A stretch of 34,452 nt of DNA. Origin: Chrysochromulina tobinii. Taxonomy: Eukaryota. Positions 1,008 through 33,900 of the stretch are shown here, piece by piece. The stretch is taken from positions 1 through 34,452 of the forward strand of contig JWZX01001759.1 in NCBI GenBank assembly GCA_001275005.1. Direction: 5' to 3'. The translations under genes and the position numbers were made by a program. Position 1 is the first letter of the stretch; every line of letters begins with the position of its first letter. The notes beneath the pieces are model-generated. The model was not told the origin of the DNA, made no database searches, and saw nothing but the letters and a program-made list of their open reading frames with translations.

Positions 1008-3201
1008 ATGCCTCGCCCGATTTTTACTCCCGAGTACAAATGGGATACCCGGCGTCTGTCCGCACCCGTAGTGATGCCCGACGTTCACGTTCAATCTTCG
1101 CCGCCGCCGCAATCCAAACTCACGCCGGCACAAGCACGCTCAAAGCGCATCCTCGAGTCCTCGAGGCGACGCATGCCTGACAGTTCACTCGCCCCTCCCG
1201 TAGTCATGCCCGACGCGAATGTAGCCCAAGGCGTGTCGGCGAGACGGCTTCAGATGCAGAATGCCAGGGCAGCCCTCAAGGCAGTCGCGCAGCAAGACAA
1301 GGCCAAGGCCGAGAGTGAGGGTGCTACCGCGGGTTTTGCGGTAAGGAGTGACGCTGCTGCAAAGGAGGAGGAGATGCGGAAGGCCAAACAGGCCAAAGAG
1401 GAGCAAGCGAAGCGTGGGCGTGAGGAGGCTGCCGCCGCGCAAGCTGCGGGCAGGGTTGGCGCGGCCCAAAAGGCCGAGGAGGCGGCGCGAGCAAAGGAGG
1501 CTGCACGAGCAGGCGGCGCGGAGCAGGCGGCGCTCGAGCAGGAGCGGGCGCAGAAGCTCAAATCGGCCAACGCGAGCTTCGAGGCCGGGAGGCTTATGGT
1601 TAAGAAGGTAAAGTATCGGGAGGCGGAGGCGGCGTTCCGGACTGCGCTGCAGATCAGGTCAGAGGTGCTCGGTAAGCGCCACGAAGAGGTGCTCAAGGTT
1701 CAAACGGAGCTCGGCGAGGTGTGCATACGCCAAGACAACCACGTCGAGGCAGCGCGCCTCCTCCACGAGGTCTATGAGAGCTATCTAGCGGCCAAGGGCC
1801 AGGCGGATGTGATGACCCTCAAAGTGGTCCATTTGCTGGGCAACGCGCTCTCCGCCAGTGCGCGCTACGAGGAAGCCGAGACGCTCTTGAAGCTCACCAT
1901 CGACGCGTGCTCCTTGCAGTACGGCCCGAGTGCCAAGAATACGCTCGTTTTCAAGACGGGGCTCGGCTTGCTCTTTGACAAGCAGGATCGCCTCGAGGAC
2001 GCAGAGCCCTTGTTGCGTGAGGCTCTGGCGGCGCGCCGGAGGGCAGCCTTGGTGGCCGTTGTGAGCGGCACGCATGATGTGAACGACCTGTGCGCCTCGA
2101 TGGGCAGCCTCGCCGTGGTGCTCCAGAAAAGGAAGCAGCCTGGACCGCTCGCTGAGGCGGAGGCGCTCTATCGAGAGGCGCTCGAGCTCACGCGCAAGCA
2201 CGACGAGGGAAAGGAGAGTCGCACTTCCATTGGATTGATGAATAACTTGGCAGCGCTCCTCAAGCCCGAAGCGAGCCGCTCGGACGAGGTTGAGCAGCTC
2301 TTGCGGCAATGCATCAAGGCCGAGAAGGAGCTCTATGGACCGTCGAACGACGCGACTCTGAACACCACCGAGCAGCTCGCTTCGCTCCTGCATCACACCC
2401 GAGGCTTACACGCCCAGGCCGAGGAGCTGCTGCGCGACGTGCTTCAGGAACGTCGAGCCGCGCTCGGCCTGATGACCTCTGATGACCTCTGATGACGTCT
2501 GATGACGTCTGATGACATCTGATTGCCTCCCTCATCAGGAACGTCGAGCCGCGCTCGGCCTGATGACCTCTGATGACCTCTGATGACATCTGATGACGTC
2601 TGATTGCCTCCCTCATCAGGAACGTCGAGCCGCGCTCGGCCTGGGTCATGAGAGCACGATCACGACGATGGTGAACCTGGCGTCTGTCTTCCGTGCCATG
2701 GGCCAAACTCCGCAATCGGAAGCGCTGCTCAAGGAGGCGCACGAGGCAAGCCTAAAGGCGCTCGGCGCGGGGCATTACAAGACCAAGCTGATCGAAAGGG
2801 ACTTGACGGGCTTGGGCGCTGTTCCAAAAGGTACAGGAGGCTCCTTCGTGGCCAAAGGGTTCGACATGACGATTAAGACGCTCGGCGTGGCCTCGGGCTG
2901 GCAGGAACTCTTCGATAACTTCGACAATTCGGACGCGGGCCTGGAGGAGGCGTTTGCCAAGGTGGACACGGACACGAGCGGCAAGATCGACGCCAAAGAG
3001 TTGAAGGCGTACATCCAGAGCAAGTACAAGTCGAATGGCCTTGACGACAAGACCATCGAAATAATGATGGCGGCGGCGGACACGAACAAAGACGGCGAGA
3101 TTGACCTCGATGAGTTCAAGATGATCATGCGCGCTGGGGCTGGGCCAGGGGCTGGGCCAAGCGTGGAGACAGAAGAGGAGAGCTTCCGAGGCGGTTTGTA
3201 G
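1008..3201 (+). CDS. TPR-repeat (kinesin light chain/nephrocystin-3-like) protein with C-terminal EF-hand pair; exons 1008-2447, 2620-3201
   Basis: Repeats such as KYREAEAAFRTALQIRSEVLGKRH and LAEAEALYREAL; EF loops DTDTSGKIDAKE and DTNKDGEIDLDE; removing 2448-2619 joins the two ORFs in frame (DVLQ|ERRAALGLGHES). Start codon uncertain. Confidence 0.85.
2448..2619 (+). other. Repeat-family intron #1 (two tandem modules; apparent GA-AG)
   Basis: 24-nt copy of downstream exon start + 6 decamer units + CCTCATCAG, then the same again with 5 units; excision restores the frame. Confidence 0.85.
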
Positions 3202-3610
3202 GCGCGAGCGGCGAGGCGCCGGCCATGGTTGGTACCCAGCGTACGCACCAGCGCCCTGCCCGGGTCAGTGTGTGTCCACACCGCACTCCGCACACGACTA
3301 ACGCACAACCTTATTGCTTATAGGATTTTTATCGGCCGGGGATCGTGCTAACTGCTATGCTCGACTTATCGTTAGAAAAATGTCGTTTCTCTGGGATGCA
3401 TCTTTGTACACTTCTGATTCTTAAGAATCGGGTTGTTGAACCGGACGGGACTCGGGAGCGCGACCGAGCTCCTCCAGCGGTAGACAGCGGGTGTTCCCGC
3501 ACCCTTTTCGGAAATAAGGCTGAAAATGAGACCGGGCTTCAAGTTTCTAAAGAAGACGTTTCGTGGCGGCATCGCGTCGTCAAGAGCTCCAAGTCAGGTC
3601 AAGGTTTGGC

Positions 3611-3625
3611 TTGACTTGACTTGAC
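3611..3625 (+). promoter_or_regulatory. (TTGAC)3 candidate promoter element
   Basis: TTGACTTGACTTGAC ~40 nt upstream of the BCD1 ATG; similar arrays at 4711-4720, 7981-7999 and 12393-12416. Confidence 0.4.
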
Positions 3626-3664
3626 GACTCCTCATCTGTACTTTACAAAAAAGGTCCGCTGACA

Positions 3665-4648
3665 ATGGACGGCGACGACGTCGCCTCGAAGGCGGCGGAA
3701 GAGGAGCCTCCTCCGCCGGCCCGACCCCCGGTCGCTCGCTGCGCGTGCGGCGAGCCCGCCAAATACCGCTGCCCCGCATGCGACACGCGTTCGTGCTCCG
3801 CCGCGTGCGTCGACTTGCATAAGCAAAACCGGCCTTGCACGGGCAAGCGCAATGTGGCTGAGTACCACGCGATTGGCGAGTTTGACGATCTCGTGGTGCA
3901 TCGCGATTACCAGTTCTTGGAAGACGTGGGGCGTGCCGTCGACAGCAGCAAGCGCGTGCGCCGCGATGTGGAGCCGGCCGAGGGCCGGCGTGGATATTCT
4001 CTGCCACCCGCCCGGCACCAGCTGCTGCAGCGCGCGCTCGAGCGGGGCGTCCATTTGGAGCTGCTGCCGCACGGTATGCAGCGGCAGCGTGAGAACACGT
4101 CGCGCTATGATGCCCGCCGGCGGCACATCTGCTGGCGCGTCGAGCTCGACTTTGGCGTCGCGGGTGTGCGGCACATCTTGCCAAGCGTGGTGGACAGCAC
4201 GACGCTGCGCGAGCTGCTGCGAGACCTTATCGGGCTGAGTGGGGAGCCGAGCGGCAGCACGGGCGCGGAGCATGCGGGCAACAGCGTCAGCGCCAGCAAT
4301 GGTGGCGGCGGCGGCGGTGTTGCCGCCGCCGGCGATGCGAGCACGAACCCTAGCGCAGCTACAGCACCTGCGGCAGCGCCAGCGGCGCCGTCGCACCGAC
4401 GCGACGGCGGGCAGCGCGCGGTGCTGCGCCACAAGCTGCGAGCGTACGCGGCGGCGGGCGAGAAGCAGCTGGTGGTCTTCATGGCCGTGCCCCACCGGCG
4501 CGGCGCAGCCGACGAGCGCTTCTACAGCCTGCCGCTCGTCGCCACGCTGCTCGACGCGCTGCACGGCAAGACGCTGATCGAGTTCCCAACGTTGCACGTG
4601 GCGATTCGCGATGGGTCGGAGAAGCAGCGCTTCCCGACGGTGGGCTGA
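3665..4648 (+). CDS. BCD1: Box C/D snoRNA protein 1 (zf-HIT; BCD1/ZNHIT6 homolog)
   Basis: zf-HIT CACGEPAKYRCPACDTRSCSAACVDLHK...CTGKR followed by DYQFLED, LLPHGMQRQRENTSRY and C-terminal LIEFPTLHV motifs typical of BCD1. Confidence 0.9.
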   Translation: MDGDDVASKAAEEEPPPPARPPVARCACGEPAKYRCPACDTRSCSAACVDLHKQNRPCTGKRNVAEYHAIGEFDDLVVHRDYQFLEDVGRAVDSSKRVRRDVEPAEGRRGYSLPPARHQLLQRALERGVHLELLPHGMQRQRENTSRYDARRRHICWRVELDFGVAGVRHILPSVVDSTTLRELLRDLIGLSGEPSGSTGAEHAGNSVSASNGGGGGGVAAAGDASTNPSAATAPAAAPAAPSHRRDGGQRAVLRHKLRAYAAAGEKQLVVFMAVPHRRGAADERFYSLPLVATLLDALHGKTLIEFPTLHVAIRDGSEKQRFPTVG

Positions 4649-4791
4649 TCCCGCGGTCTGCATGGGGCTGCAGATCGTGGTGTGCCCTTTTTTTTCTTTT
4701 TTTTTTTTTACTTGACTTGAGAGGCTTCACAATCACAGCTTTTAAAGAATCTCCTTTTTTGGGCCTTCTTGTGGTCTTCTTGAACTCCGAA

Positions 4792-5730
4792 ATGGGCCGT
4801 GTGTTGATGCTCCTTGCGGCAAGGACCTTGGCGGCGGCGTTTACAAGCTTTCACACTACAGCGTTGGTAGCGGCGCCGGAGTGGCACGGCATAGGGCTGC
4901 ATGGCCTGCTGAGCGCGCAGGAGGCCGCTCCAGATGCACCGTTGATGCTCTTTGACCGGCATCTCGAGAAGAATGGGGGCTTCTCGATGCACACGGCCAT
5001 GCAGAATTCTGTGGCTTCAGCCGGCTCCAAGCTCAACTGCACCAAACTCTTTGGCTACCAGATCAATAACAAGGACTGGGTCGAGATGGCGTCGTTGCTC
5101 ACGCAGAAGCAGAGCATCTGCGTGGACGGGCACTCGCCGGTCCCGTCGGACTGGCTGCAGCGCGCGCGCGCTGTCGCGTCCGAGGTGGCGGCAACGGGCA
5201 CGACACCGCGCGTGCTGACGACGCTGCGCATCCGCAAACCGACAGATCATTACCGCTCCTTTTATGACTGGGATCAGGTGCCGCGCATGAACCAGAAGTG
5301 GGCGACGAACGTGAGCCTGATCGAATTCATCATGATGACGCCCGACCTGCAGGCCTCGACGTTGCTCGAAAGCAACCGGGCGGTGCTCGCGCAGCACCGC
5401 AAGGGCGCGACCGAGCCGCTCAGCGCGAGCGAGTGCGCGGCGGCGCTCGAGACCGCGGCAGACGTCGACCTGCTCACAACGACGGAGGCCATGACGGAGA
5501 TGTGGCCTGTGCTGCGCCGGCTGACGGAGTTCGCGCTACCCGAGGAGCACATCCACGAGGGGCCGAAGCGCTTTGGCTGCTGCGGCCCGGCCGTCTCGCT
5601 CCTCGTCGATAAGGTCGAGCAGGCGACGCGCACGATGGCGCCCTGCGACTGGATGCTGTATGAGATGGCGCAGCGTGCCACCAGCAAGCTGCTCGACGAG
5701 TGGAGGACACTCTCTGATGCTAAAGAGTAG
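4792..5730 (+). CDS. Putative sulfotransferase-like protein
   Basis: N-terminal hydrophobic segment; HLEKNGG resembles the 5'-PSB motif (HxxKxGG); LRIRKPTDHYRSFYDW resembles the 3'-PB motif; DWMLYE near the C-terminus. Confidence 0.5.
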   Translation: MGRVLMLLAARTLAAAFTSFHTTALVAAPEWHGIGLHGLLSAQEAAPDAPLMLFDRHLEKNGGFSMHTAMQNSVASAGSKLNCTKLFGYQINNKDWVEMASLLTQKQSICVDGHSPVPSDWLQRARAVASEVAATGTTPRVLTTLRIRKPTDHYRSFYDWDQVPRMNQKWATNVSLIEFIMMTPDLQASTLLESNRAVLAQHRKGATEPLSASECAAALETAADVDLLTTTEAMTEMWPVLRRLTEFALPEEHIHEGPKRFGCCGPAVSLLVDKVEQATRTMAPCDWMLYEMAQRATSKLLDEWRTLSDAKE

Positions 5731-6170
5731 TGAGCGGCAGAGCCGTGTACATGTAGAGAGTAGAGTTTAGAGAGTGGCAACCGTGCAACTAATTGTATTA
5801 AAGCGCTATAGGCGCGGCGGCTACACCGCAACCGCATCGTACTCCTTCGTACTCCATCGTACCGCTAGTCGCTCCTGGCAACCATCCGTGTCGCGCCAAT
5901 CGGACGTGTGAAATCCCACAGAAATAAGCCCTCCGCCCACGTGCTGGCCTCTTTCGGGCGGACGGGGTCAACAGTGGCTTGCGCAGCTGGAACGCGGCCG
6001 GAGAGCATACGCTGCACACGTGCACAGAGCCACAGACAGTCAGAAAAAGCCCGCCACACGCATGCGCGTAGGAGCCCCGAACCACGCAGATTGCGTCACC
6101 GGGCGCGCAGTGGACCGCCCGGCTGCCGGCGGTGAGCGGCCGCGCATCATTGAGCACGTCCACGGAAGAC

Positions 6171-7784: not shown

Positions 7785-8082
7785 CGGCAACGCAGTCGCA
7801 AGGGTGTCGCGAGGTGTGAATACAATGACGGTCTTCTCGTCAGGTCGTGCTCGTAACCAATTTGAGAACCGTGAACGTTTTGATGTCAGGGTGGAGGTTT
7901 GCATCGACGACAAGCGGAAGCCAACCATTTGAATCCTGAAGAGTCCCACCGATGGCTTCACCATTGACCTGTATCGTCGAGACTTGACTTGTCTTGACTC
8001 TCACGAGGCACAGCGGACGTGTCGCACGCCCGGCGGTCCACGGACGTGGCCCTGCCCTTCTGTGCGCCTCCCTGGTCGCGCA

Positions 8083-9558: not shown

Positions 9559-9636
9559 TGACGACCGCGGCGCCCTTGAGCCTTGGCTTTGTCTGGCGCA
9601 TGGGGCGTGAAGCTACACGGCACACGGAGGAGTCGT

Positions 9637-9682
9637 GGAACCCTCCCTGTGCGGTGGAACCCTCCCTTTGGAACCCTCCCTC
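9637..9682. repeat. Three copies of GGAACCCTCCCT downstream of the CDK stop
   Basis: Direct repeats visible in the sequence. Confidence 0.7.
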
Positions 9683-12273: not shown

Positions 12274-12571
12274 CCTTGGCCGACTCAAGGACGACTTGGA
12301 GGCCAAGCTGGGTTTGTCGATTTGGGCCGCTAAAAAGGGCTCTGATTAGGGGCGTAATCACTTTGCCTTCTAGGTTCGAAAAAACCCCGTGATCAAGTCA
12401 AGTCACGTCACGTCAAGGCACGTCAAGGGCACGCGCAAGTTGACCTTGAGATCTTGATTGTGTTGCGTGAGTGCTCGCCAAAAAGAGATTTTCTCCGACG
12501 GCGGTGCCGCGCCCCGAACGAAAAAGCGGCACGCGACCCGAGTTCCCCTCAAGACCCTCAAGGTGTCCACG

Positions 12572-15301: not shown

Positions 15302-18300
15302 TCACCTCATCCGCACCGCGGGGAAACGCAGCAGGGACTCGGAGGCAGCTGAGTCGCGATCCGAGCCGCGGCTCGAGTCCGAATCACAAGATAGGCGCGA
15401 CGAGCGCAGAGAGTGCAGCGAGTCGCGGATCGAGTGACGAAGCGAGGTGCGGATCTCCGGCGACGAGTACTCGAGCGTAAGCGCCTCGAACTGCTCGTTC
15501 ATCTCGACCGAGAGCGGCTTGCGCAGCGGTGAGAGCACGGGTGCCTCGAGGGTGTACTTGGTGTCGAAGTTGGACACGTCGCTCGTCGGGTCGGCGGCAT
15601 TCAGCGTGGGCACAAACGGCGCCTCAAGCTTCCCGAGCATCAGCAGCTTCCAGTTCAGGTTGCGGAAAAAGGGGTGTGTCTTGAGGGAGGCAAAGTCGGA
15701 CTGACACGTGGGCGACTCTTCTCGGACACCGAGCCGCTGGGCGGGGTCCTTGGTGAGAAGCCCTTTGATGAGCCCCTTGGCCTCATTCGTGAACCAAGAG
15801 GGCAGCCGCAGCTTCGTGTGCACGATCTTGCGCTGCAGCTCCTTCTGCTCCTTGTGCCACCACGGCGCCTCGCCCGTCATCATCTCGTAGAGCAGCACAC
15901 CTGATGAGGGAGGCAATCAGAGGTCATCAGAGGTCATCACACCTGATGAGGCGTCATCAGCTCGTAGAGCAGCACACACCGAGCGACCACACGTCTCATC
16001 AGAGGTCATCAGAGGTCATCAGAGGTCATCAGAGGTCATCAGAGGTCATCAGCACACACCGAGCGACCACACGTCCACCGCCTGGCCACAAAGCATGCGC
16101 CGCAGCACCTCGGGCGCCATGTACTCGGTCGTGCCAACCAGCACAGGCCGGCCTGAGGCGGACGTGTGCGTGGCGGAAGCGGTCAGCCCAACGGCTGCGA
16201 GCCCGAAGTCACAGAGCTTCGCGTTCCCGTCGGCGCAGATGAGCACATTCTCCGGCTTGAGGTCGCGGTAGATGATGCTCTGCGCATGCAAGTGCTCGAG
16301 CGCGAGCATCACCTGCCAAATGAGGGAGGTCATTAGGGAGGTCATTAGGGAGGTCATTAGGGAGGTCATTAGGGGGGGTCATTAGGGTAGCCATGAGGGT
16401 GCTCGAGCGTCGTGACGATCACCTCGGCGGCATAGAAGCGCGCCATCTTCTCCGAGAACATCTCATGCGCCCTCAGGTGCGCGAAGAGCATGCCGCCCGG
16501 CACGTACTCCATCACGAAGTGCAGCTTGGACGCGCTCTGGAAGGCACATTCGAGCCCGAGGATGAACGGGTGGCGCGCCTCGGCATGCTGGCGCAGGATG
16601 CTCAGCTCGATCGCAATATTCTCCATCGAACGATAGCGCTCAATGGACGCCTTATCGACCACCTTCATCGCATAGATCTGGTGGTTGAGGTGGCAGCGTA
16701 CTTGGAAGACCTTGCCGTAGCCTCCCTTGCCCACGAGCCGCAGTAGCACAAAGTCGTCCATGGAGAGCGTGCGCATGCTTGCCGTCTCCGCCAGCTCGAG
16801 CTCCTCCACGAGCGCGTCCACCGCCTCCGCCGCCGCCGCCGCCGCCACACGTGCCAAAAAGTCCCCATCGAGCGGCGACGCGAGGTGCTCACCATGGCGC
16901 TCGTTGGCGTCGCTCCTTACGCTGCCCGCCGCCGCCTCCTCCGCCGCCTCCGCCGCCTCCGCCTCCTCCGCCTCCTCCGCCTCCTCCGGCGCCGAGATCG
17001 ACCGCAGCAGCGCGGCGAGGGCCGCCGTGAGCTCTGCCGCTGCCGCTGCGGCATGCGCCCCATCGTACCGCGGCAACTCGCCGCTGATCAGCGAGCGACT
17101 CGACGGCGGCACGATGATCTTGAGCACGACGGGGGGGCTCGGCGGCGTCGTTGCGGGCGGCGTCGTCGCCGCGCTCGCGCCGGCGTCGTTCTCGTCAGGC
17201 ATCATCGAAGTGTCTGGATCGGCCAGATTGAGCGTCGTCGCGGGCGTCGTCGTCGTGGGCGCCGCAGTGCCCGTCGGCACCGCAAGCTCGTCTGTGACCG
17301 TGGCGCTGAGTGGTGGGCGCAGGCCGGTGGCAGCAGCAGCGGACGTTGAGGCGCCGACGGCGGGCGCGCTGCGCTGGGCACCTGGTGGCGGAGCGCCGTG
17401 CTGGGCGGCGGGAGGCAGCTTCATCGAGTGTGGGAAGTTGTGCGGCGGAGAGTGCCGAGGGTGAGGGGTGTCAGGACCGTGCAACGGCTCCCTGATCTCG
17501 TCTTCGATATCATCGTGTAAGGGCTCCCTGATCTCATCGTCGTGCGCCGCCTCGATCGACATATGCACCGGATCCGATGCTGCCCACGACGGCGCGGCCG
17601 CGCTGCCGGCCGCTGCCCACGACGGCGCCATGGGAGCCGCGACGGCGCCAGTGCCGGTGGATGCTGCAGCAGGGGTGGGTGGTGTGACCGAGGAGGAGGT
17701 CGAAGAGGCGGGCGTGGGTGTGGCCGAGGAGGCGAGGAAGGAGGAGGCCGAGGAGGAGGTGGAGATGGCTGTAGTGCTCGACGCGGCGCTCATGCGCAGC
17801 ATCGAGGAGACGGAGGCTGCCTCGAGCCCCCCGCTACCCGCCTTGGCCCCCGGCGAGAGAGGGCCGCTGCTCGCTGTGGGCGGCGGCCGGCTATGTAGAA
17901 GCGATCCATGGCTAAGGGTGGCGGGGAGGGCATCGAGGTGACGCAGCTCTCCCAATGCGGTGGCAGCCGCGCTGCTCTGCTGCTTGATCTTCTGTGCCGA
18001 GGACTTGAACTGATACAGCCGATCCAGCATTGCCTGGCCCTCATCCGCCGATGCGCCCGCGACGGCGCCGGCGCCGCGTCCGCCGCCGCCGCCGCTGGCG
18101 CCCACGCCGGCGCCGGCGCGTCCCCCCCAGGCCCCCGCAGGGGGCTGCTTGCGCCACGTGGCGTCGGGCGACGCGCCGGCGGCACTGGCGCCGAGGCTGC
18201 TCCCCCACGCGCTCGGCTTGGGCGTGGACGTGCTGAGTGGGTGCGCCTCCTCCTCCTCGCGCGATTCGCGCGGCGCCACGTGTACGGTCTCGACCGTTGG

Positions 18301-20172
18301 TGCCCGCCACGGCGCGTGCATGGCCGAGGCGGCCGCGGAGGCCGAGGCGGCCGCGGAGGCCGCGGAGGCCTGCGGTGCGCCCGGCTCGGCGGGCATCGTC
18401 AAATCCGCCTCCTCCCACGAGGCCACGGAGACGGTCGACATGCGGTTGCTCGGTCGGCCTGATGGGCGGGCCGAGGGCTGCAGCGAGCGAGCGTCCGGCG
18501 CCGTCGTGGGCACCGGCGCGGCGGACGGAGCGGCTGAAAGAGGCGGCGCGGGGGGCGCAGGTGGAGCTGGTGGCGCAGATGGAGCTGGTGGCGAAGGCGG
18601 AGCTGGCGGCGGTGGAGCTGGCGGCGGTGGAGCTGGCGGCGGTGGAGGCGGAGGAGCGGCGGAGGGCGGGCCGTCGGCGCCAGCTGCGGCTGCGGAGGCG
18701 GCTGCGGAGGCGGCTGCGGGGGCAGCTGCGGAGGCGTCTGCGGGGGCAGCTGCGGAGGCGTCTGCGGGGGGCCATCGCCCCTCGTCATCACGAGCCATCT
18801 GGCGCTGCAGCGTGGCCAGCTCGTACTCGAGCTGCGGAATCGAGAGCACCTGATGAGGGAAGCCATCGGAGGTCATCAGTGAGGCAATCAGAGGCAATCA
18901 GCTCATACTCGAGCTGTGGAACTGAGAGCACCTTGGCCTGTAGGGCCTCGGTCAATCAGAGGCAATCACATGCAATCAGAGGCAATCACATGCAATCATA
19001 GGCAATCAGCGGTCATCAGTGAGGTAATCAGAGACCATCAGAGGCCATCAGAGGCCATCAGAGGCCATCAGAGGCCATCAGTACCTTGGCCTGTTGGGCT
19101 TCGTTGAGAGGTTTGCCATCAGCGTGCTCCTGCTGCACCGCGAGGGCCTGCCGGAGCTTCTTGAGGATCGCTCGCTCGCGCTTCTCCGCCTCGCTCTTGG
19201 CACTGCTCGTGGCCTCGGCGGCCGGGGTGCCCGCTAGCTCGTACGAAACTGCCGCCTCGGCCATCGGCTGAGTCTCGGCAGACAGCGCGCCCTGCGCCTC
19301 TGCGGCCGCCTCTGCGGCCGCCCCTGCGGCCGCCTCGGCTGCCTCGGCCGCCTCCGCCGCCTCGGCCGCCTCCATCCTGGCTCGTAGCGCCGCCTTCTTC
19401 CTCTCCCGCGCGGCCGCCTTCGCAGCGGCCGCCTCATCGGCGCTCGCCTCGGCGCTCGTCACGGCGCTCGCCGCACTGCTCAGCACGGCGCTCGACTCGG
19501 CGCTCAGAACGGCGCTCGCATCGGCGCTCAGCACGGCGCTCGCCTCGGCGCTCAGCACGAGTTTAGTCACGGCGCTCGTCTCGCTGGCCGTGGCACGGCC
19601 CTCAGAAGATGGCGTGACAGCCCCCCCAGCTGCCCCGACGGGCAGTGCCGTGTCAGTGGCCTCGGCCGATGGTGGCGCCGCGGCCGCGGGCGGCGGCGTG
19701 GCCGCGGCCTTGGCGGCGGCCACGTCCTCAGCGGCCGCCTGCGCGGCCTCCAACTGCGCCTCCGCCGCCGCACGCTCCTCCTTGAGCTCTGCCTCGCTCG
19801 CAAGCTTCTGCAGCTGCTCCGCGGTGAGGGTCTTGGCCTCGAGGCTGCGTGGCGAGAGGCACATCGACCCGGAGGGCGTGAGTGGCATCCACTGGAACTC
19901 GCGATGGGCAGCTCCAGGCGGCAGCATGTGCGTTGCGGCGGCAGTGCTGACCTTCGGATTTCCTCAATCTGACGCAGCTTCTTCGTGAGCGCACGGATGC
20001 GCTTGTTCAGGGCTGTTACGGGATCGTCGATGGACTGCGCGAGACACAGCCGCGCTCTCAGGTCAGCAGCGGGAAGAGCGGACACGGTGCTGAGCATGAT
20101 GGGTACGTCGCGCGGGTCTGTGCAGCTCGTTTCACGCACCACCACAGCCGTGGATGGCCCCTCGGTTGCCAT
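15302..20172 (-). CDS. S6K-like AGC kinase with a long N-terminal extension (~1419 aa); exons 20172-19952, 19844-19085, 18849-16423, 16312-16060, 15900-15302
   Basis: [54 protein letters not shown] tail APFVP...DVSNFD; four GT-AG introns give one continuous frame (4260 nt). Confidence 0.85.
15901..16059 (-). other. Repeat-family intron #2
   Basis: G|GTGTGTGCTGATGACCTC...TGATTGCCTCCCTCATCAG|GTGTG; internal junction copy 15952-15995. Confidence 0.88.
16313..16422 (-). other. Repeat-family intron #3 (12-mer CCCTAATGACCT variant)
   Basis: GAG|GTGATCGTCACGACGCTCGAGCAC...(CCCTAATGACCT)n CCCTCATTTGGCAG|GTGATGCTCGCGCTCGAGCAC. Confidence 0.88.
18850..19084 (-). other. Repeat-family intron #4
   Basis: AAG|GTACTGATGGCCTC...CCCTCATCAG|GTGCTC; internal junction copy 18899-18950. 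Confidence 0.88.
19845..19951 (-). other. Ordinary GT-AG intron
   Basis: AG|GTCAGC...CCACGCAG|C joins [13 protein letters not shown] in frame. Confidence 0.75.
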
Positions 20173-24904: not shown

Positions 24905-27767
24905 TCAGAAGCCAGTGAAGAGCTCCGAGTCGGCGGGCTTGCACGGCTTCGCATCAGTGACGATTCTCTCCGCGGGCAGCCATTCGTACTTGGACGCATC
25001 GAAGAGGGGAGGCTTAAAGGCAGAGCCGCGCTGCGCATAGTCGGTCCAGTCGAAGCCCGATTTGGCATAAAAGGGGTGCTCCTTGATGTCCTTGCAGCCG
25101 TCGCGCAGGTTGCCATACCGCTTCGAGATATCCTTCTGGAGCAGCTTGGAGATCAGATCTGCCGCATCGATGTTCATCTCGGGCGGGTAGTGGACCGTGC
25201 CGTCGAGGATCTTTTGGTACGTCGCTAGGTGGTCCTCGGCCTCAAAGGGCGAGTGGCCGTTGAGCATCTCGTAGAAGAGAACGCCCATCGCCCAGTAGTC
25301 GACTGCCTTCGAGTGCCCCTTCTCGAGGATGATCTCGGGCGCGAGATACTCTGGTGTTCCACAGAGCGTCCACGAGCGGTACTTGATGACCTTCGCGAAG
25401 CCAAAGTCGGTCAGCTTGAGCGCGCCGTCCTGGGCGACCAGGATGTTCTCGAGCTTGAGGTCGCGGTGTACGATGCCCATACTGTGCATGTACTCGAGAG
25501 GAAGCATCACCTGCCGAGGGCGAGCGACCGCGGGCGGTAAGTGGGGGTTGTGTGTGTCTGTGTAGGGGTGGGGGTGGGGGGGAGGGCAGAGGGCGGAAGG
25601 CGCGTGCCTGCGACACGTAGATACGCGTGTCGGGGACGGAGAAGCGCTTGTGCTTATACAGCTGGTCGAACAGGTCGCCGCCCGGGCAGAACTCCATGAT
25701 GAGAATGAGGTTGGACGGGGTGACAAAGCCGGCCCACTTGTTGGTAACGAATGGATGCGCTATCCTGTCGAGGATCTGCGTCTCCTGCATAATGTGCTCC
25801 ACCTGGCCCATCGAGACAATGTCCGCCTTCTGCATCTGCTTGAGTGCAAAGACCTCGCCCGTGCTCCTCACGCGGCATCGGCGCACTGTACCGAACGCGC
25901 CTTCGCCGAGCGTCCCTTTGGTCACTGTGAAGTCACTCAGCGTCATCGGGCGCTGCGCCTTGATGTACTTGTGCTCGTTGGGCATCTCGACGCCTGCGCT
26001 CGCGCTGCCGGTGCTCTCCGCGTCCGCGTCGCTTGCCTGCTGCTGCAACTCGGCGCCGCTCGCAGTGTACTTGCGCATCGCGAGCAGTTCCCCCAGCGGC
26101 CCTAGAAGCCGTTGGAAGGCGCCGCGGTCCATACGCACGACGGTCGTGCCCGCGGCGGCGGCGGTCACTGACGCCATCGTGGGCGCCCCCGTCTTGAGTG
26201 ACAACTCTCCGAAGTAGTCTCCCTGATGAGGGATCACTCAGATGCAATCAGATGCAATCAGATGCAATCAGATGCAATCAGAGGAGACACGTTCGGAGCA
26301 TACCTCCCTGCGACGTGCGAGCTCGCCCTGGCCCGCCTTGGTGATCACCACCTCGCCTCGCGCGATCACATAAAAGTGGGTGCCTTCCTCGCCCTCGGTG
26401 ATGATCGCGTCATCCTGGGCGTAGGTGACCTCCTCGAGCGCATCCACCATGCGGTTGCGCTGGTCCTTGTCCAGCGGCGCGAGCAGTGGCACCTTTTCGA
26501 GGAACGATTCATAGCTCGCCGCCTTCTTCGTGTTCGCCTCGAGCACGATCGTGCGGAACGAGACGCGATCGAGCGACCATAGCACAACGGGAGTCGCCGC
26601 CTGGATCGTCGCCGTGCGCGGGCAATTGTACATGAGCGCGAGCTCCCCAAACGACTCGCCCGCCCGGAAGCCCCTGACGCGCACCGGGTGGCTGTCGGGA
26701 TCCTCCCCCTGCACAAACGCATCGAGCTCGCCACTGTCCACGATGAAGAAGTGGTTCCCCTTCTCGCCTTGCGTGATGACATTCTGACCGGGGTGTATTG
26801 TGTGCTCCATCATGGCCTCCTGCAGCATCGTCAGCTGCATCTCGTTGAGCCGCGAGAAGATGACGTTGCGACTCACCGCCCCCATGATGCGCGCTACCTG
26901 CTCCGTGGTCTTCTTCTTCCCAGATGCGACCTTGCCGGTCAAGACGCCTGTCGTCGCCTCCGCCGCCTCACCAAAGCGGCGGCCGCGCATCTTGCTGCCG
27001 GCCGGGGCGCCCTCAGCCTTGAGCGCGAGCTGCTGCTGACCCGCCTCCCGCACGAACGCATGCAACGGCACCAGCTTCAAGAAATCCTCCTTTCGGAACG
27101 TGGCGCACCACACCGCCGTCTCCGCGCGGCGTGTCTCCTGGTGCTTCGAGTTCTGCAGAAGCTCGACGTGCCCAAAGTAGGCCTGCCGGCCGTACTTGGT
27201 GCTCTCGGCTGGGCCGCCCGCGACCGCGACCACCGTGCCTTCACGCACGACGAAGAACTTATTGTCGCCCGGTGTGCCGACCTCGTGCATCGTGGCGCCT
27301 GCCGCGTAGCGCACCTCGCGGCACGCGTCGGCGAGCAGCCCAAGCTCGTAGTCTTCGGAGAGCTCGGCGAAGATTGGAAGCAGCCTGAGAAAGGGGACCC
27401 ACTCGGCGCGCTTCTTGACGATCTTGTCGCCGAGCGCTGCATTGAACGCGCGCCGATTCACCATGAGCAGAGTCACCTCCGGCGAGGTCGCCATGATGCT
27501 CGCGCTGCGCGGCTTGCCGGTCAGCAGCGAAAGCTCACCGCACCACGAGCCGGCGGTGAGGGAGCGGACGTTGCGCCGCTCACCCGCGCTGTCCGCCATC
27601 CACACGTCGCACGTGCCGCTCTTGATCAGGTAGAAATTGTTGCCCTTGTCCCCTTGCCGCATGATGACCTCCTGTTGCTTCACCTGGACCTCTGCCATCG
27701 AGTCGACGAAGCCTCTCCGCTCCTCGTCGGTGTCCATGTAATTGTGCAGCAGCGCACAAGGTGGCAT
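24905..27767 (-). CDS. Cyclic-nucleotide-dependent kinase: four cNMP-binding domains fused to a PKA-C-like kinase domain; exons ~27767-26304, 26222-25608, 25510-24905 (5' end uncertain)
   Basis: Phosphate-binding cassette motifs CGELSLLTGKPRSAS, FGELALMYNCPRTAT, YFGELSLKTGAPTMAS; kinase LGEGAFG, HRDLKLEN, WTLCGTPEYLAPE, KRYGNLRDG, ends FTGF-stop. Confidence 0.88.
25511..25607 (-). other. GC-AG intron
   Basis: CAG|GCACGC...CTCGGCAG|GTG gives YVSQ|VMLPLEYMH in frame. Confidence 0.8.
26223..26303 (-). other. Repeat-family intron #5
   Basis: GAG|GTATGC...(TGATTGCATC)4 TGAGTGATCCCTCATCAG|GGAGAC gives ARRRE|GDYFGEL. Confidence 0.88.
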
Positions 27768-28223: not shown

Positions 28224-30440
28224 ATGTCCGACGACGTGTGTTCGCAGACCTCCGCCGCCTTCTGGGCGCAGGGTGGCCCTCGCACAACGCAGTGCATAGG
28301 CGCAGCAGCCCTGGAGCAGTTTGCTGCCATCTCCTTGCGGAAAGAGGCTGGTGGTGCAGGCAGACATTGTCTGCCTGCGGGCAGTGCGGCACTCGTGATC
28401 GGTGGCAACAAAGGCGACGACTGTGCGGGATGGGCCCGGCTGCTATCCGGTGACGACACCCTGAATGCATCCGCTTGGCGTGCAGAGTTGCTTCGGCATA
28501 TTACTGGCAAAGTCGACGCGTCGGTGCGCAAAATCGGCACGAGTGCATGCATTGGCGAGTATCCGCTCGCACGACAAAGTGCGGTGCGAGCCCACGTGTT
28601 TTGTGTCGAGGCCCTGCCAGCAAACTCCCGCATCCTTGGAGCAGCTGTCAGAGCCGCGCCGTGGAGCAGCTACATGACGACGATCGCAGCCGCTGCCGTT
28701 TCCCCGACTCAAAAGATGGCAAGTGGCACGGTGCCGTTTCCGAACTGGGAAGTCTTTGGATTCGAGAGCATCGGACTCGGCTCGCGACCGGGCATACCTG
28801 ACGCGCAGGTGGAAGCCGTCACCGCAGATGATCTCGTTCGCTCACACATGAGTGGATTCACACCCGCTGTGCTCACGGTAGACACGGAGGGCAATGATCC
28901 TGAGGTGCTGCTTGGGTCGACGCAGCTGCTCGCGTCGGGGAGTGTGGGGTTTTTGCAGTTTGAGGTTCACAGCCAAGGCGCTTGGCGAAGCCATTTGCTC
29001 CGCGACACCATTGGCATGCTGGACAACCATAGCTACACGTGCTTCTGGGCTACCCAATCTGGAGCTCTCTACCGGATCACGGGCTGCTGGGAGCCCCGCT
29101 ATGACCAACGCAAGATCTGGAGCAATATCGTTTGCGCGAATCGCCGTTCCGCATGCTGGACCGAAGCACTTGAGCGTGCTGCCTACAGGCCCAACGCGCG
29201 CGCTACGCGGCAGCCACGCTCACTCAACGAGGTTGCACCCGATGAGTGGGCGAAGTCTCAGAAAATCGATTCGGACGATCCGACGAGGGCGCATCAAGAG
29301 CCGCCAGTAGGATCGACGCAAAATGTATCGGCGTTGGGCAACCTGAGCACGCTGCTTCACGGATCGACGCTCGCCAACCTCTCGACAGAGTGCTGTGCGG
29401 ATGGGAGGGTGCTCATGCAGCAGACGAGAGCGTGGCTGTCAGTTCCCTCGAGCTCCAATCGACCTGTGTTTGAGACTTGCTTGCAAGGCAGAAAATGGCC
29501 TCTCGGCCCCACGGAAAGACGTATATTTCATGAAGCGCTTCAGCATCGATGCCATTGGGTCAACGGGCTGGATTCGAGCGTTGCATGGGTTGTTCTTGAC
29601 TGCGGTGGCTACGGCCACAGTCAGCCGCCAGGGCGACGGCACGACAACGGTTCGCTGGCACGCTGTGCACCTGCTCACGTGAGTGTCGCGTGCGTGACCT
29701 GCTCAAAGCCGGATTTGCGTCCTGGAATCGACATGGGCTTCCCACCCATATCGTGGGGGACGAAGACCCTTGCGGCTTTGCGACCGAATTCGACGCAGGA
29801 TGTCGAACAGCGGTGCCTCTTCAACTACGAGCACCGCTTTGAGCGGTACCCGCTCGCCACATTTCGAGGCTCGTTCGCAAGCCGGTTTAGCCGTCATACC
29901 TATCCATATGACGGGTATAAGCGTACTTTGGGGCATTGGTTGCTCAACATGAGCAGGCACAATGTGAGCGTGCCGGGATGGGGCCACATACAGGTGTCGT
30001 TTACAGACTTCAAAGACAAGGCACCGGCGGCGATGGAGGGTGCGAAGACGCTTTGCACGAACTCGTACGAGGAAGACTTTCTGAAGAGCCAGTTCATCCT
30101 CGCGCCACGTGGGACCAATCTTTACTCGATGCGAGCCTTTGAGGCCATGTCTATGGGCGTGATCCCCATCATCATCTCGGATGATTGGGTCTTGCCATTC
30201 GAGGACGTCATCAACTGGTCGCAAGTCTCGGTGCGGCTGTCTGAGCTCGAGCTTGAGTCGTTACCTGCCAAACTTGCGTCGATGACCATCGAGCGAGTCT
30301 GCCAGATGCGCAAAAATGCGTTTGAGGCCTACCGCCGGTACCTGGAATCGCCGGCAGCATGGGAAGCTGGGATTGCAAGTTCTCTGGCCGCGAGGAGGAG
30401 GAGCAGCGCCGGTCCCACGCCGCCGTCTGACGGGCCGTAA
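28224..30440 (+). CDS. FkbM-family methyltransferase fused to an exostosin (GT47)-like domain
   Basis: VIGGNKGD...FCVEALPAN...VLTVDTEGNDPEVLLG...LQFEV (FkbM); SQFILAPRG...RAFEAMSMGVIPIIISDDWVLPFEDVINW (exostosin C-terminal signature). Confidence 0.8.
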   Translation: MSDDVCSQTSAAFWAQGGPRTTQCIGAAALEQFAAISLRKEAGGAGRHCLPAGSAALVIGGNKGDDCAGWARLLSGDDTLNASAWRAELLRHITGKVDASVRKIGTSACIGEYPLARQSAVRAHVFCVEALPANSRILGAAVRAAPWSSYMTTIAAAAVSPTQKMASGTVPFPNWEVFGFESIGLGSRPGIPDAQVEAVTADDLVRSHMSGFTPAVLTVDTEGNDPEVLLGSTQLLASGSVGFLQFEVHSQGAWRSHLLRDTIGMLDNHSYTCFWATQSGALYRITGCWEPRYDQRKIWSNIVCANRRSACWTEALERAAYRPNARATRQPRSLNEVAPDEWAKSQKIDSDDPTRAHQEPPVGSTQNVSALGNLSTLLHGSTLANLSTECCADGRVLMQQTRAWLSVPSSSNRPVFETCLQGRKWPLGPTERRIFHEALQHRCHWVNGLDSSVAWVVLDCGGYGHSQPPGRRHDNGSLARCAPAHVSVACVTCSKPDLRPGIDMGFPPISWGTKTLAALRPNSTQDVEQRCLFNYEHRFERYPLATFRGSFASRFSRHTYPYDGYKRTLGHWLLNMSRHNVSVPGWGHIQVSFTDFKDKAPAAMEGAKTLCTNSYEEDFLKSQFILAPRGTNLYSMRAFEAMSMGVIPIIISDDWVLPFEDVINWSQVSVRLSELELESLPAKLASMTIERVCQMRKNAFEAYRRYLESPAAWEAGIASSLAARRRSSAGPTPPSDGP

Positions 30441-30948
30441 CGAAACCTACCGGCACGATTGAAAGAATCCTGACTGCACGTCTCAAGCACAACGTACGTA
30501 GCGATAAGCCTGCGGATGCTGCGAGCTGCCTGACGTTGCGCAAGCCGCCAGCAGTGGGCGAGGCCTCGATGTCCTTTCGGAGTAGAGCTAGAGGATCCTC
30601 CGAGTGTCTAGAGCTGTCTTGTTATTCGAAGGGCAATACCAATAGGGCGCGTTAGGCGCGACGCCCATCGCGACTAGCCGCTACCGCTAGCCCTACAGTA
30701 CGCGCTAAGTATGGTACTCGGTCCATCGACCGCACCCGACTCCTACGTTGTTGGTGGTACGACGGTTCCCGGTTCGCCGATACATTACAGCTCGCGGGCT
30801 GTGCTACGGTACTACATCACCGCCTGCGAGTGCAGCTCGAGCTGGACTCTCAGCCGCCGTGTTGAGCCTCTGTAGCCGGCGTCGACAGGCGGGGCCACTT
30901 GCGCAAGCTGCTCAGACTGAGTGCAACCAAAGATCAGCCAGATTCGCG

Positions 30949-33900
30949 CTAATCGCGCAACGTCCACACCCGAATCGTCTCGTCGAGCGAGCCTGAACAC
31001 GGGCGCCCCTCGTGCACGACGAGGCTGTACAGACCCCCTCGATGGCCCGCGAGCACGCGCAGTCGCTCGTACGTGCCCAGATGCCACACGATGCAGGTCT
31101 TGTCCGAGGAGGCGGAGAAGAGCCGTTGCCGGTGCGCGTCGGCTGCGAGCGCGCACACGAAGCTGCGGTGGCCGGCCAGTGTGGCTTGTTGCTCGAGGGA
31201 TGCGAAGTCCCAGACGCGAATGAGCCGATCGCCGCCGCCGGAGAGCAAGCGCAAGCCGGCGGCCGAGCCGGCGGGCGATGGCGGCGACGGCGGCGACGGC
31301 ACGAGCAACAGAGCGTAGACAGCGCCGTCGTGGGCGATCGGTTCGAGGCGGCCCCGTGCACGGAGTGTGTACAGAGGCGCAAGGGTGCGAGCGTCCCACA
31401 CACGAATGGTCGCATCGGCGGAGGCCGAGACGAAGCGCTCAGTCGCGTAGATGACGATCGCATGGATCTCGGCCTCGTGAGCCTCCTTGGCGAGGTGTGT
31501 CAGGGTGATGCTCGGGCGGACCATCGCCGAAGCACCTAGCCCGAGCCCACCTGCCCTGCCTGCCCTGCCTGCCGGGTGGACCGCCGCCGAAGCGTCCTGC
31601 AACGTCGCGGGCGATGGATCGGGCGCGGGATAGGGCGCCACGCTGGGCGGTGCATGCGGAGATTGGATCTCGAGCCGCGGAGATTGGAGCTCGAGCCGGA
31701 GCTCGAGCCGGCTGATCCCGCAGTCTGCGGAGCCGCAATACACTGGGCCGTCGGGAGTGGCCGCGCTGGCGCACAGCACGCTAGCCGCGTGCACCGTGCA
31801 CCTCTGCATGCACTCCCAGCGCCCAGAGCCACCTTCAGGTGGGCGCCACAGCTGAACTGTCCCGTTGGCAAGCCCGGCCAGGAGCACGCCGCGCAGCGGT
31901 AAGAGGGCGAAGACTGTCGTGTCGTCAGCCGCATCCGCCTCGACGGATCGAGCAACAGCGGGCCGTGGCTCGAGTGCCAGGGCAGCCTGAGCAGCGCAGT
32001 CGAGCTCGACTACCAACCGCCATGCCGCACGCGCCCCAGCTGCCTCCGCCTTAGCACCCTGCGCTGCCGCCGGCGCGCTCCGCTCCGTCTCCGCCGACGC
32101 TCCCTCGGCGGACTCTCGATGCTCCTCCTGCCAGATGCTCACCTTGCCATCCGCGCCACCTGAGAGCAAAATGGGGTTGCTGCTGTCGGCGGGTGTCAAT
32201 GCCGGTCTACCCAGGGCCGCGTCGGCGGTGGCGAGGGACCAGACGCAGCCACGATGGGCAGAGAGAACCTCCGTCGTCGGCTCTTCTGCCAGGTCCTGAG
32301 CGCCTGGGCGAACCGGGACGCGGTGAAGCGCCAGCGCACCGTCCACGCTCCCGGAGAGTAGCTGCGTCGCTGCCCGGCCGGTGCGCCGGGTTGGATGATG
32401 AAGAGGAGCGGCTATGAGCGATAGGATGCCGGAGGAGTGAGCAGCACAGCGGACGACCGGTAGGCTCGGTAGGCTCGGTGGGAGGGAGGTGGCGGAGGCG
32501 GCGGAGCCGGCGGAAGCGGCGCATTGGACGGCCGCCGCCGCATCCCAACACAAGAGTTCGCCGCGTCCGCCCGCTCCATGCAACCACCCCTCCGCATCGG
32601 CCGCCAGTGCACAGACGGAGCCCTCGCCGCTAGTCAGCTGGCCGACTGCCCTTCGCCCCGGCACGTCCCAAAGCACAACGTGCCCCTGTGCATCGGCCGA
32701 GGCGAGCTGGAACGTGCCCGCGAGCGGCGTGCACCCAGTCCTCGCGGGGTCGCCTGCTGCGGCTGCGGCGCCATCGTCCAGCACGGGTGGTAAGAGCGCT
32801 GCCAGAGCAAAGACCGACGCACGATGCATGCTCGGGTCGAGCGTTGCCACCGCGCTCAGATCGGCGCGATTCCACAGACGCACGCGATGGTCCGCCCCGG
32901 CGGTGACGACGAGGGACGACGCGGCGAAGGCGAGAGCGTAGACACCACCGCCCTGCTCGGTCACGTGCACGCGCGCCGTTGGCAGCATCGAGCCGCCTGC
33001 GAGACCGAGCACCGGAAGCGGGCGGACGGACCATCGCAACAATTCGCCTTTCGCATCTGCAGAGAAGAGAACCGACGCGGCGGCATCGGCGGCAGCGGCG
33101 GCGGCACCAGCTTCTGCGTACGCTCCGCTGGCGCAGGCACAGCAGAGCACGCTCCCCGTGTGGCCCATGAGCGCCACGATGGCGCGGAACCGCATGAGGT
33201 CCCAAATGCGTATCGATCCATCGGCGGAGGCGGAGACTAGCTGGCCTGAGGGGGTGAGCGTCAGAGCGTGCACCTGCTCGAGGAGTGCCTTCCGATGAGG
33301 GCCGCAATCAGAGGCCATCACATGCAATCACATGCAATCAGAGGCCATCAGAGCGTGAGAGCGCGCACCGCATCCGTGTGGCCGCGAAGCGTCGCCACCT
33401 GCTCGGCCATCGCGGGCACTTGAGCGGGCGCGGCCGCCGCTGCTGTGCCATCTAAAACGGCTCCTGCGGCCACGTAACCACCATGGCCGGCCACGTAACC
33501 ACCGTCGCCGACCACGCGGCTGCCCACGCTGCCAGCTGCGCCACCGACCACACCGCCGACCGCGCCATCGCCTGCGCCGGCCAGGTCGGTGGCGAGTCGC
33601 GGTACGCATGCATCCGGAGTCCAACGGCAGAGGCGGATCTCGCCATTGCCGCCGCCGCATGCAAGCGTGTGGTCTGGCAGCATCAACATGGACCAGACGC
33701 ACGTGCCGTGCGGCTGGATCTGGCACGGCGCCGTGCCGAGCGCCACGTACCCAGGCGCCTGCGCGCCCGCCACGGCGCCCGTTGCGTTCGACTCTTCGCT
33801 GACGGCGCCTGCCACGGCGCCATCTCCCGCGATCTGGCCGCCGGAGGCCGCCGCACCAGTTGCGGATCCTCCCGAGATCGGAGCTCGGGTTTCGGCAGCC

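What the first reader, a model, noticed from the sequence alone, without database searches (positions are those of the whole stretch)
2448..33368. Candidate intron-generating system: minisatellite introns whose 5' end duplicates the downstream exon
Seen: six introns in four unrelated genes (2448-2619, 15901-16059, 16313-16422, 18850-19084, 26223-26303, 33274-33368) share one sense-strand layout. It runs: copy of the first ~5-24 nt of the next exon (5 of 6 introns); variable array of TGATGACCTC/TGATTGCMTC/TGATGGCCTC-type units; then CCTCATCAG or a variant. All six are in sense orientation to their host gene, and I saw the array nowhere outside introns. Duplication fidelity ranges from perfect to undetectable, like an age series. 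Established: introner elements (Micromonas, Aureococcus) are non-autonomous DNA transposons that take one splice site from a short fixed-length target-site duplication. Inference: this follows the same logic, with the duplication giving the donor and the insert giving branch point and acceptor. However, duplication length and unit number vary and there is no fixed-length element, which points to iterative templated synthesis (telomerase/RT-like addition or templated break repair) rather than cut-and-paste. No enzyme for it is encoded in this window.
Basis: partly seen in the sequence, partly recalled or inferred. Interest (0 to 1): 0.92.

Follow-up and report, generated by a model that had tools for sequence, protein, structure and literature searches.

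The report
Introns seeded from neighbouring introns' ends
In a haptophyte alga (Chrysochromulina), many introns consist of a 10-47 base copy of the next exon plus a stretch resembling the tail of other introns, and some are present in one strain but absent in another, so new introns are likely being born here by copying the ends of existing ones, probably during DNA break repair.

Summary
The six array introns are real. One is spliced exactly in three RNA runs, and homologues are colinear across four of them. The host is a Chrysochromulina-type haptophyte.

The layout is genome-wide. Of 125 array ends in related contigs, 78 carry an upstream copy (10-47 nt, one 70) of the next exon. Strand calls were 50 sense, 1 antisense, 41 unclear. 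A second family without arrays has the same layout (27 of 42); the scan noted a similar intron before in this genome (e1-2577349).

These are likely gains. Intron 5 is missing from unspliced gene calls of near-identical strains. Relatives on long DNA contigs run through introns 2-5 uninterrupted.

Three results bear on mechanism: excess microhomology where copy meets array, neighbouring introns far more alike than distant ones, and acceptor-less inserts at existing donors. They favour microhomology-primed copying of existing intron ends at staggered breaks, filtered by splicing. A telomerase-like single template and the 'age series' are not supported. DNA versus RNA template is open.

I found no description in ten literature searches; one introner screen lists C. 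tobinii with zero families.

The parts
2448..2619 (+). Intron 1 (TPR/EF-hand gene, phase 0): two head-to-tail units, each a 24-nt copy of the next exon start + 10-nt array + CCCTCATCAG; begins GA
   Evidence: 7 near-identical gene calls read into it; RNA unitig ends at 2471 and 2616 fit a spliced branch, but no joined contig was listed
2448..2471 (+). First copy of the exon start 2620-2643 (second copy 2539-2562)
   Evidence: 24/24 identical
15901..16059 (-). Intron 2 (AGC kinase, phase 1): donor + array, 16-nt copy of the upstream exon end (15980-15995), 26-nt copy of the downstream exon start (15952-15977), short array, CCCTCATCAG
   Evidence: flanks adjacent in 5 of 5 homologues
16313..16422 (-). 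Intron 3 (AGC kinase, phase 0): degenerate copy of the next exon (16392-16422), 12-nt-unit array, variant end CCCTCATTTGGCAG
   Evidence: P=0.0015; read-in in 33 near-identical gene calls; flanks adjacent in 5 of 5 homologues
18850..19084 (-). Intron 4 (AGC kinase, phase 0): donor + long array, copy of the upstream exon end (core 18932-18950), 33-nt copy of the downstream exon start (18899-18931), array, CCCTCATCAG
   Evidence: flanks adjacent in 2 of 3 homologues
26223..26303 (-). Intron 5 (cNMP-binding kinase, phase 0): GT donor with a non-local 5' piece, array, CCCTCATCAG; presence/absence polymorphic
   Evidence: spliced in RNA runs X13-X15, kept in DNA run X9; absent in 9 and present in 2 listed cluster members; no local copy; no source for its 5' piece in the held loci
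33274..33368 (-). Intron 6 (WD40 gene, phase 0): 18-nt copy of the next exon (33351-33368), array, decayed end CCCTCATCGG followed by a later AG
   Evidence: P=0.03; removal joins a WD40-like repeat (81); splicing not shown
25511..25607 (-). Ordinary 97-nt GC-AG intron in the same gene as intron 5; internal control, not a family member
   Evidence: skipped in RNA (listed there as 25510-25606, a 1-nt slide); read into by 8 of the 9 gene calls that lack intron 5 (68)

Best explanation
These introns are each a copy of the start of the next exon joined to a stretch that matches the 3' end of other introns, and they were likely made when a staggered DNA break was repaired by copying the end of an existing intron, often one in the same gene. 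Inferred steps: (1) two nicks 10-47 nt apart leave a 3' overhang; (2) its end anneals by a few bases to the branch-point array of an existing intron and copies it; (3) synthesis returns to the start of the overhang, duplicating it. In coding DNA such an event would survive only if the duplication starts at a donor-like G|GT (or GC) and the copied stretch ends at the template's AG, so that splicing restores the mRNA exactly; or if it spans an existing donor and is swallowed by that intron. Each new intron would be a new template, so the family would amplify itself without an element of its own. Arrays and whole units then change copy number by ordinary slippage. Shown: the anatomy, splicing of one intron, polymorphism, strand bias, microhomology excess and neighbour similarity. 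Inferred: the breaks, the polymerase, a DNA template and the order of events.
For: Layout: 39 of 58 unique seed sites have an upstream copy scoring >=10 versus 0.2% of shuffled pairs; 55 of 58 are followed by G (44 GT, 7 GC). Wider set: 78 of 125 array ends and 27 of 42 family-B ends. Exact removal leaves an open frame in 60 of 63 clean cases versus 18 unspliced. Strand: 50 sense, 1 antisense, 41 unclear of 92; random windows 80/69/151 of 300. Gain: intron 5 is absent from 9 gene calls, 8 of which run into the next ordinary intron, on contigs up to 26,404 nt. Relatives on 9.6-183 kb contigs are uninterrupted at introns 2 and 3, P0242 (24.4 kb) at intron 4 and P0016 (29.8 kb) at intron 5. DNA pairs about 98-99% identical differ by a 71-nt family-B intron with a 32-nt copy (L029/L074), an 83-nt one (L006/L066) and a 76-nt donor-spanning insert (L061/L080). 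Microhomology at the copy/array junction: mean 1.62 nt (n=37) versus 0.70 simulated, P=5e-5. Neighbours: best match in the same locus for 15.2 of 29 array introns (null 3.3), 8.0 of 19 without L033 (null 1.5), 6.8 of 27 family B (null 1.3). Acceptor-less inserts: 14 of 85 introns have an upstream repeat spanning the donor, 2 of them with an array beside a family-B intron that has none. Hybrids of the two families occur in 4 loci by the script's labels plus L053.
Against: No break, enzyme or template was observed. Neighbour similarity could come from gene conversion after birth. The same products arise from an RNA template. 47 of 125 and 15 of 42 ends lack a detectable local copy; intron 5 and the L066 intron have non-local 5' pieces with at most a 1-2 nt repeat, which needs a whole-intron copy or another route. 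Most best matches are not in the same locus, and a 42-nt unit whose source exon is in L091/L107 recurs in unrelated loci, so long-range copying is needed too. Donor-spanning repeats end unexpectedly close to the donor (2-11 nt in; P=0.002 under uniform placement, 10 events picked after seeing the data), which random breaks plus selection do not explain. Loci were found through the array motif itself, so this is no unbiased genome sample; no whole genome was available. Absence in relatives rests on protein calls taken to be unspliced, not on their DNA, and could include losses. Only 1 of 6 window introns has direct RNA proof.
Confidence: 0.5

Rival explanations
1. RNA-templated version: a nick at the G|GT target primes reverse transcription on the 3' end of an excised intron or nascent transcript (target-primed, by a retroelement RT or a repair polymerase). 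Truncated copies take their donor from the target duplication; full-length copies bring their own.
For: A fixed 3' end, variable 5' extent, variable duplication and 5' microhomology match the non-LTR signature (variable TSDs and 5' truncation in PMC9977147 passages; 5' microhomology recalled). Whole introns with non-local donors and almost no duplication exist. Orientation is nearly always sense. Same-gene bias and skew towards donors suit a transcription-linked process.
Against: Acceptor-less array inserts with the same kind of duplication show that the 3' end is not always fixed. No poly(A) or other tail was seen by eye in the printed ends. No RT among 22 window ORFs (weak). The antisense array is richer in AG, so selection alone could give the strand bias.
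Confidence: 0.25
2. One or two non-autonomous master elements (SINE-, Penelope- or Replitron-like) insert at G|GT with variable duplications, i.e. an unusual introner.
For: Family B has a conserved core and hybrids share one array-to-core junction. Replitron-1 inserts at RG with variable TSDs and fuzzy ends, and one Replitron locus is reported in C. tobinii (PMC10288648 passages). Earlier scan note e1-2577349 read it this way.
Against: Idiosyncratic 3' ends are shared by neighbouring introns, not genome-wide. There are 69 unit variants. No terminal repeats or fixed length were seen in the printed introns.
Confidence: 0.1
3. Old introns in which arrays expanded and exon edges were later copied ('mirage'-type exon-boundary minisatellites).
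For: Whole units and donor-spanning segments are tandemly amplified in many loci. Intron 3 is fixed in 33 of 33 calls.
Against: The copy sits at the intron's first base and supplies the donor. Relatives lack introns at these sites. Presence/absence is precise. The same insert families recur in unrelated genes.
Confidence: 0.07
4. Two steps: plain tandem duplication at AG|GT makes a weak intron, then gene conversion from other introns replaces its 3' part.
For: Intron length (mostly 65-98 nt) is independent of copy length for arrays, and copy and insert lengths are anti-correlated (rho -0.50, -0.45). The mechanism is accepted in review (PMC3443670 passages).
Against: Only 16 of 44 and 8 of 18 clean sites have AG before the donor, so most duplications would lack an acceptor. 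Polymorphic pairs show no plain-duplication intermediate.
Confidence: 0.06
5. Assembly artefact at repeats.
For: Unit numbers differ between near-identical assemblies (L009/L057). A 25-32 nt repeat could collapse in a short-read assembly or by RT jumping.
Against: The same structures recur at 99.9-100% identity across assemblies. Intron 5 has no flanking repeat, yet is spliced and polymorphic. Copies carry mismatches, some towards a better donor.
Confidence: 0.02

Closest known systems
Introners that recruit the 5' splice site from a TSD: Symbiodinium, and Polarella ILE classes 4/5 and 6/8/10 (PMC9860276 and bioRxiv 10.1101/2020.10.14.339549, passages)
   Same: Insert carries the 3' splice site; the duplication gives the donor; mRNA is restored exactly; GA/GC donors occur there too.
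   Different: There the TSD has a fixed length per class (4 or 8 nt), the Symbiodinium element has TIRs, and copies are near-identical. Here the duplication is 10-47 nt, the insert is variable, and it resembles neighbouring introns.
Introners of marine Chrysochromulina MAGs (PMC9860276 Fig. 2C legend and supplement rows)
   Same: Same genus label; repeated introns of about 80-110 nt in the rows seen.
   Different: The figured family has a 4-bp TSD, carries its 5' splice site and co-opts the 3' one: the opposite polarity. I did not see the family sequences, so overlap with other listed families is not excluded.
New introns of Daphnia pulex attributed to staggered double-strand-break repair (PMC4202315 passages)
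   Same: Polymorphic new introns flanked by a repeat of the adjacent exon end; secondary internal duplications.
   Different: Repeats there are 4-12 bp and sources mostly unknown. Here repeats are longer and the insert belongs to genome-wide intron-end families.
Intron transposition / reverse splicing: Micromonas IEs, Oikopleura same-gene intron pairs, fungal ILEs and Hypoxylon sister introns (PMC3879977, PMC3443670, PMC8469720 passages)
   Same: Existing introns as source; sense-only; same-gene pairs; nested or merged copies.
   Different: Those are whole near-identical introns (no TSD in Hypoxylon). Here most copies are 3' portions flanked by long duplications.
Non-LTR/Penelope-like and Replitron-1 insertions in Chlamydomonas (PMC9977147, PMC10288648 passages)
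   Same: Variable-length TSDs; 5' truncation (PLEs) or fuzzy ends with an RG target (Replitron-1).
   Different: Defined elements with autonomous partners; not reported as intron makers in the passages seen.
'Mirage' exon-boundary minisatellites of amphioxus (from scan notes; not read)
   Same: Tandem copies of exon edge plus splice signal inside introns.
   Different: Locus-specific units in existing introns, with no shared insert family.

Membership tests
Spliceosomal intron | Removed exactly from mRNA | tested here: met
   Intron 5 in 3 of 3 RNA runs. Introns 2-4 by colinearity with homologues only. Introns 1 and 6 not shown.
Introner (TE-derived intron family) | Many related introns at unrelated sites, with presence/absence between close genomes | tested here: met
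Introner (TE-derived intron family) | End-to-end sequence similarity between copies | tested here: not met
   5' part is locus-specific; only the 3' part is shared; lengths vary
DNA-transposon (MITE-type) introner | Fixed short TSD (3-9 bp) | tested here: not met
   10-47 nt, continuous spread; scoring threshold hides copies under 10 nt
DNA-transposon (MITE-type) introner | Terminal inverted repeats | tested here: inconclusive
   None seen by eye in printed introns; no formal search run
Non-LTR / SINE / Penelope-type insertion | Variable TSD, fixed 3' end, 5' truncation with microhomology | tested here: met
   but acceptor-less inserts also exist
Non-LTR / SINE / Penelope-type insertion | Master element and autonomous RT partner | not testable with these tools
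   No genome held; none among 22 window ORFs
Telomerase-like addition | One template giving one repeat unit | tested here: not met
   69 unit variants among 277 units, although one unit makes up 124 (74); family B has no array (39)
Intron gain by tandem duplication (AGGT model) | Whole intron is duplicated exon sequence between two AG|GT | tested here: not met
   Only the 5' part is exon-derived; AG before the donor in 16 of 44 and 8 of 18 (63)
Intron gain by break repair with templated insertion | Direct repeat from staggered ends plus junction microhomology | tested here: met
Intron gain by break repair with templated insertion | Dependence on a repair polymerase and on breaks | not testable with these tools
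   Needs genetics

The most novel reading that the evidence does not exclude
A self-propagating, element-free route of intron birth is running now in Chrysochromulina populations. Any intron's branch-point/acceptor end can be copied into a break in the same or another gene, with a long target duplication supplying the donor. Introns beget introns without a transposon, possibly through their own excised RNA, and screens that need end-to-end similarity miss them.
Probability: 0.55. Interest if true: 0.92.

Novelty: new variant of a known kind. Interest (0 to 1): 0.82.

Why it matters
The source of new spliceosomal introns is a long-open question; outside introner families most gained introns have no known source. 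Here the donor half and the acceptor half can both be traced, events segregate between near-identical strains, and the alga is in culture. DNA-repair and RNA-based models of intron gain can therefore be tested directly. Published screens seem blind to this layout (C. tobinii scored 0 families in one), so similar cases may be undercounted. The arrays also break gene models and short-read assemblies in these genomes.

Tried and rejected
Own genome not held; loci could not be extended, so no genome-wide count. The array patterns had 0 matches in viral contigs and in prokaryote genomes. The family-B pattern had 1 viral match, at a contig end beside phage-like ORFs and likely a chimera. No Rfam match in the window. 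No RT, transposase or HUH family among 22 of the 44 listed ORFs scanned against Pfam.

RNA for intron 1 (52): no joint listed. In X16, unitigs end at 2471 and start at 2616, as a spliced branch would cause if k=31 (my inference). Intron-holding pieces have similar depth (7-14 versus 10-12), X17 starts in the unspliced form, and an RT jump across the 28-nt repeat would look the same. Left open. One gene model (P0177) uses a GT 9 nt upstream instead; the X16 unitig does not break there.

RNA for introns 2, 3, 4 and 6: not bridged among the pieces shown (tables were cut and swamped by other array copies). Summed depths at arrays were not used as copy numbers.

A search for captured non-local 5' pieces was swamped by array words and gave no clean donor. 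No source for the 5' piece of intron 5 (68); its match to the inverted junction is borderline (P=0.05).

Rejected readings: telomerase-like synthesis, the age series, a fixed-length introner, pure artefact. The Huff 2016 introner paper was not held and is not used as evidence.
Full report
OBSERVATION. The six arrays are at the given coordinates. They interrupt four genes: TPR/EF-hand, an AGC kinase, a cNMP-binding kinase and a WD40 protein, always in sense. The array motif occurs 32 times in the window, only inside these introns, against 0.02 expected. Proteins named as Chrysochromulina parva and C. tobinii fall in the 90% cluster of the TPR gene and in that of its next-best hit, and the nearest named relative of the kinase is Haptolina. 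The host is therefore a Chrysochromulina-type haptophyte.

THEY ARE INTRONS. RNA contigs of three runs skip intron 5 exactly and also skip an ordinary 97-nt GC-AG intron in the same gene; the DNA run keeps both. Flanks of introns 2, 3 and 5 abut in 5 of 5 homologues each, and of intron 4 in 2 of 3. Intron 1 starts with GA and its splicing is only hinted at by unitig ends. Intron 6 rests on a restored WD40-like repeat.

ANATOMY. A copy of the next exon is found in five introns: 24 nt perfect and doubled (1), 26 nt (2), about 28-31 nt degenerate (3), 33 nt (4), 18 nt (6). In introns 2 and 4 it lies inside, preceded by a copy of the upstream exon end; a second duplication-plus-array has landed across the donor. 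Intron 5 has no copy.

GENOME-WIDE FAMILY. No whole genome was held. After dropping internal matches and duplicates, 58 unique sites remained of 155 matches: 55 are followed by G, and 39 have an upstream copy scoring at least 10, against 0.2% of shuffled pairs. A looser search gave 125 array ends, 78 with a copy of 10-47 nt (one 70). It also revealed a second family (B) with a conserved core, a pyrimidine tract and CCACAG but no array: 42 ends, 27 with a copy of 10-40 nt. Most introns are 65-98 nt whatever the copy length. A codon model trained on window exons called 50 of 92 array ends sense, 1 antisense and 41 unclear; random windows gave 80, 69 and 151. Exact removal leaves an open frame in 60 of 63 clean cases, against 18 unspliced. 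The loci were chosen through the motif, so these are not unbiased genome figures.

GAIN, NOT OLD INTRONS. Protein clusters hold gene calls that read into introns and stop, so they are unspliced. Among the 15 listed members of the 69-member kinase cluster, 9 lack intron 5 exactly and 2 read into it; 8 of the 9 read into the next ordinary intron, on contigs up to 26,404 nt. A call on a contig of that same length reads into intron 3 (P0216), so that record is likely DNA without intron 5. Intron 3 is present in all 33 near-identical calls that reach it, and intron 1 in all 7 unspliced ones. More distant relatives on contigs of 9.6-183 kb run through the sites of introns 2 and 3, P0242 through intron 4 and P0016 through intron 5. 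In DNA, pairs of loci about 98-99% identical differ by a 71-nt family-B intron with a 32-nt copy, by an 83-nt family-B intron with only AG repeated, and by a 76-nt array insert across a donor.

MECHANISM. (1) The end of the copy shares more bases with the array register than chance: 1.62 versus 0.70 nt, n=37, P=5e-5. (2) Introns in one locus are much more alike than introns in different loci, also within one group of near-identical assemblies, with the seed 30-mer sites left out, and without the extreme locus L033. L033 has about ten introns of one subtype in one gene. (3) Arrays without an acceptor sit between duplications that span existing donors: 14 of 85 introns examined have such a repeat, two with an array beside a family-B intron that has none of its own. 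(4) A/B hybrids exist and units come in 69 variants. (5) A 42-nt unit whose first part matches the exon in L091/L107 recurs in unrelated loci. Together these point to a general mutation, a duplication with a templated insert copied from existing intron ends, filtered by the need to splice out. Exon ends have G at -1 in 35 of 44 and 15 of 18 clean sites versus 1369 of 3933 background sites; this fits donor selection or annealing to the template's end. A DNA template (repair or template switch) and an RNA template (target-primed reverse transcription of intron RNA) give the same product. I favour DNA modestly, because acceptor-less inserts show that the 3' end is not fixed by the template. Whole-intron copies and the skew of second events towards donors (P=0.002, post hoc) favour RNA and remain unexplained by the DNA model.

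COMPARISON. It works like introners that take the donor from a TSD (PMC9860276; bioRxiv 10.1101/2020.10.14.339549; passages). It fails their defining tests: no fixed short TSD and no end-to-end similarity. It resembles Daphnia break-repair introns (4-12 bp repeats, sources mostly unknown; PMC4202315 passages) and same-gene intron transposition (PMC3879977, PMC3443670, PMC8469720 passages). Its junction signature recalls non-LTR and Replitron-1 insertions (PMC9977147, PMC10288648 passages). PMC8355091 on tandem duplications at 3' overhangs was seen only as a search listing.

IN PRINT? Ten full-text searches found no description; most subscription journals are not covered. The C. tobin genome paper mentions 'intron' once and no such repeat in the passages found (PMC4580454). 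The 2025 introner survey lists C. tobinii with 0 families (PMC12130899 supplement file 7; files 13-14 not searched). The 2022 survey names C. tobinii and C. parva only in its input table (file cut when stored); it reports introners in marine Chrysochromulina MAGs whose sequences I did not see. This scan noted a 66-nt intron with a 15-nt repeat in the same genome (e1-2577349); I take it to be family B from its description, without having seen its sequence.

VERDICT. A real, active and apparently undescribed route of intron gain, with a well-supported anatomy and an inferred mechanism. I file it as a new variant of a known kind; it would be categorically new if the element-free, intron-templated model is confirmed.

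Noticed in passing
L003, L013, L022, L030, L032, L055, L060, L061, L074 and others: Family B introns: copy of the next exon + conserved core with a CTCAC branch-like motif + pyrimidine tract + CCACAG. None in this window.
   Followed up: yes
L033:3000-5700: About ten introns of one array subtype in a single gene, some 200-400 nt apart.
   Followed up: partly
window 2448-2449: Intron 1 would use a GA donor; 3 of 125 array ends are followed by GA and 8 by GG, so non-canonical donors may be tolerated.
   Followed up: partly
L002, L003, L041, L046, L053: Hybrid introns joining the array to the family-B core, or the core to an array-type end.
   Followed up: partly
L091, L102, L107 versus L004, L011, L035, L077, L118: A 42-nt unit whose 5' part matches the exon of one gene, where it is tandemly amplified, recurs in unrelated loci.
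   Followed up: partly
L065:3030-3102 (-), L060 (-): Array and family-B introns stacked at one site with no exon between.
   Followed up: no
window 28286-29482: A second haplotype or paralogue of the exostosin-like gene shows in both RNA and DNA runs.
   Followed up: no
window 3606-3625, 7981-7999, 12393-12433: Short TTGAC/GTCAA-type repeats near gene starts, distinct from the intron array.
   Followed up: no
L123:2850-3060: A contig of the viral collection with phage-like ORFs ends in a host-type family-B intron and a different 10-nt array between direct repeats; likely an assembly chimera.
   Followed up: partly
L006/L066, L020/L039, L038/L078, L029/L074: Further 78-169 nt insertions that differ between near-identical sequences and belong to neither family, or only in part.
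   Followed up: no
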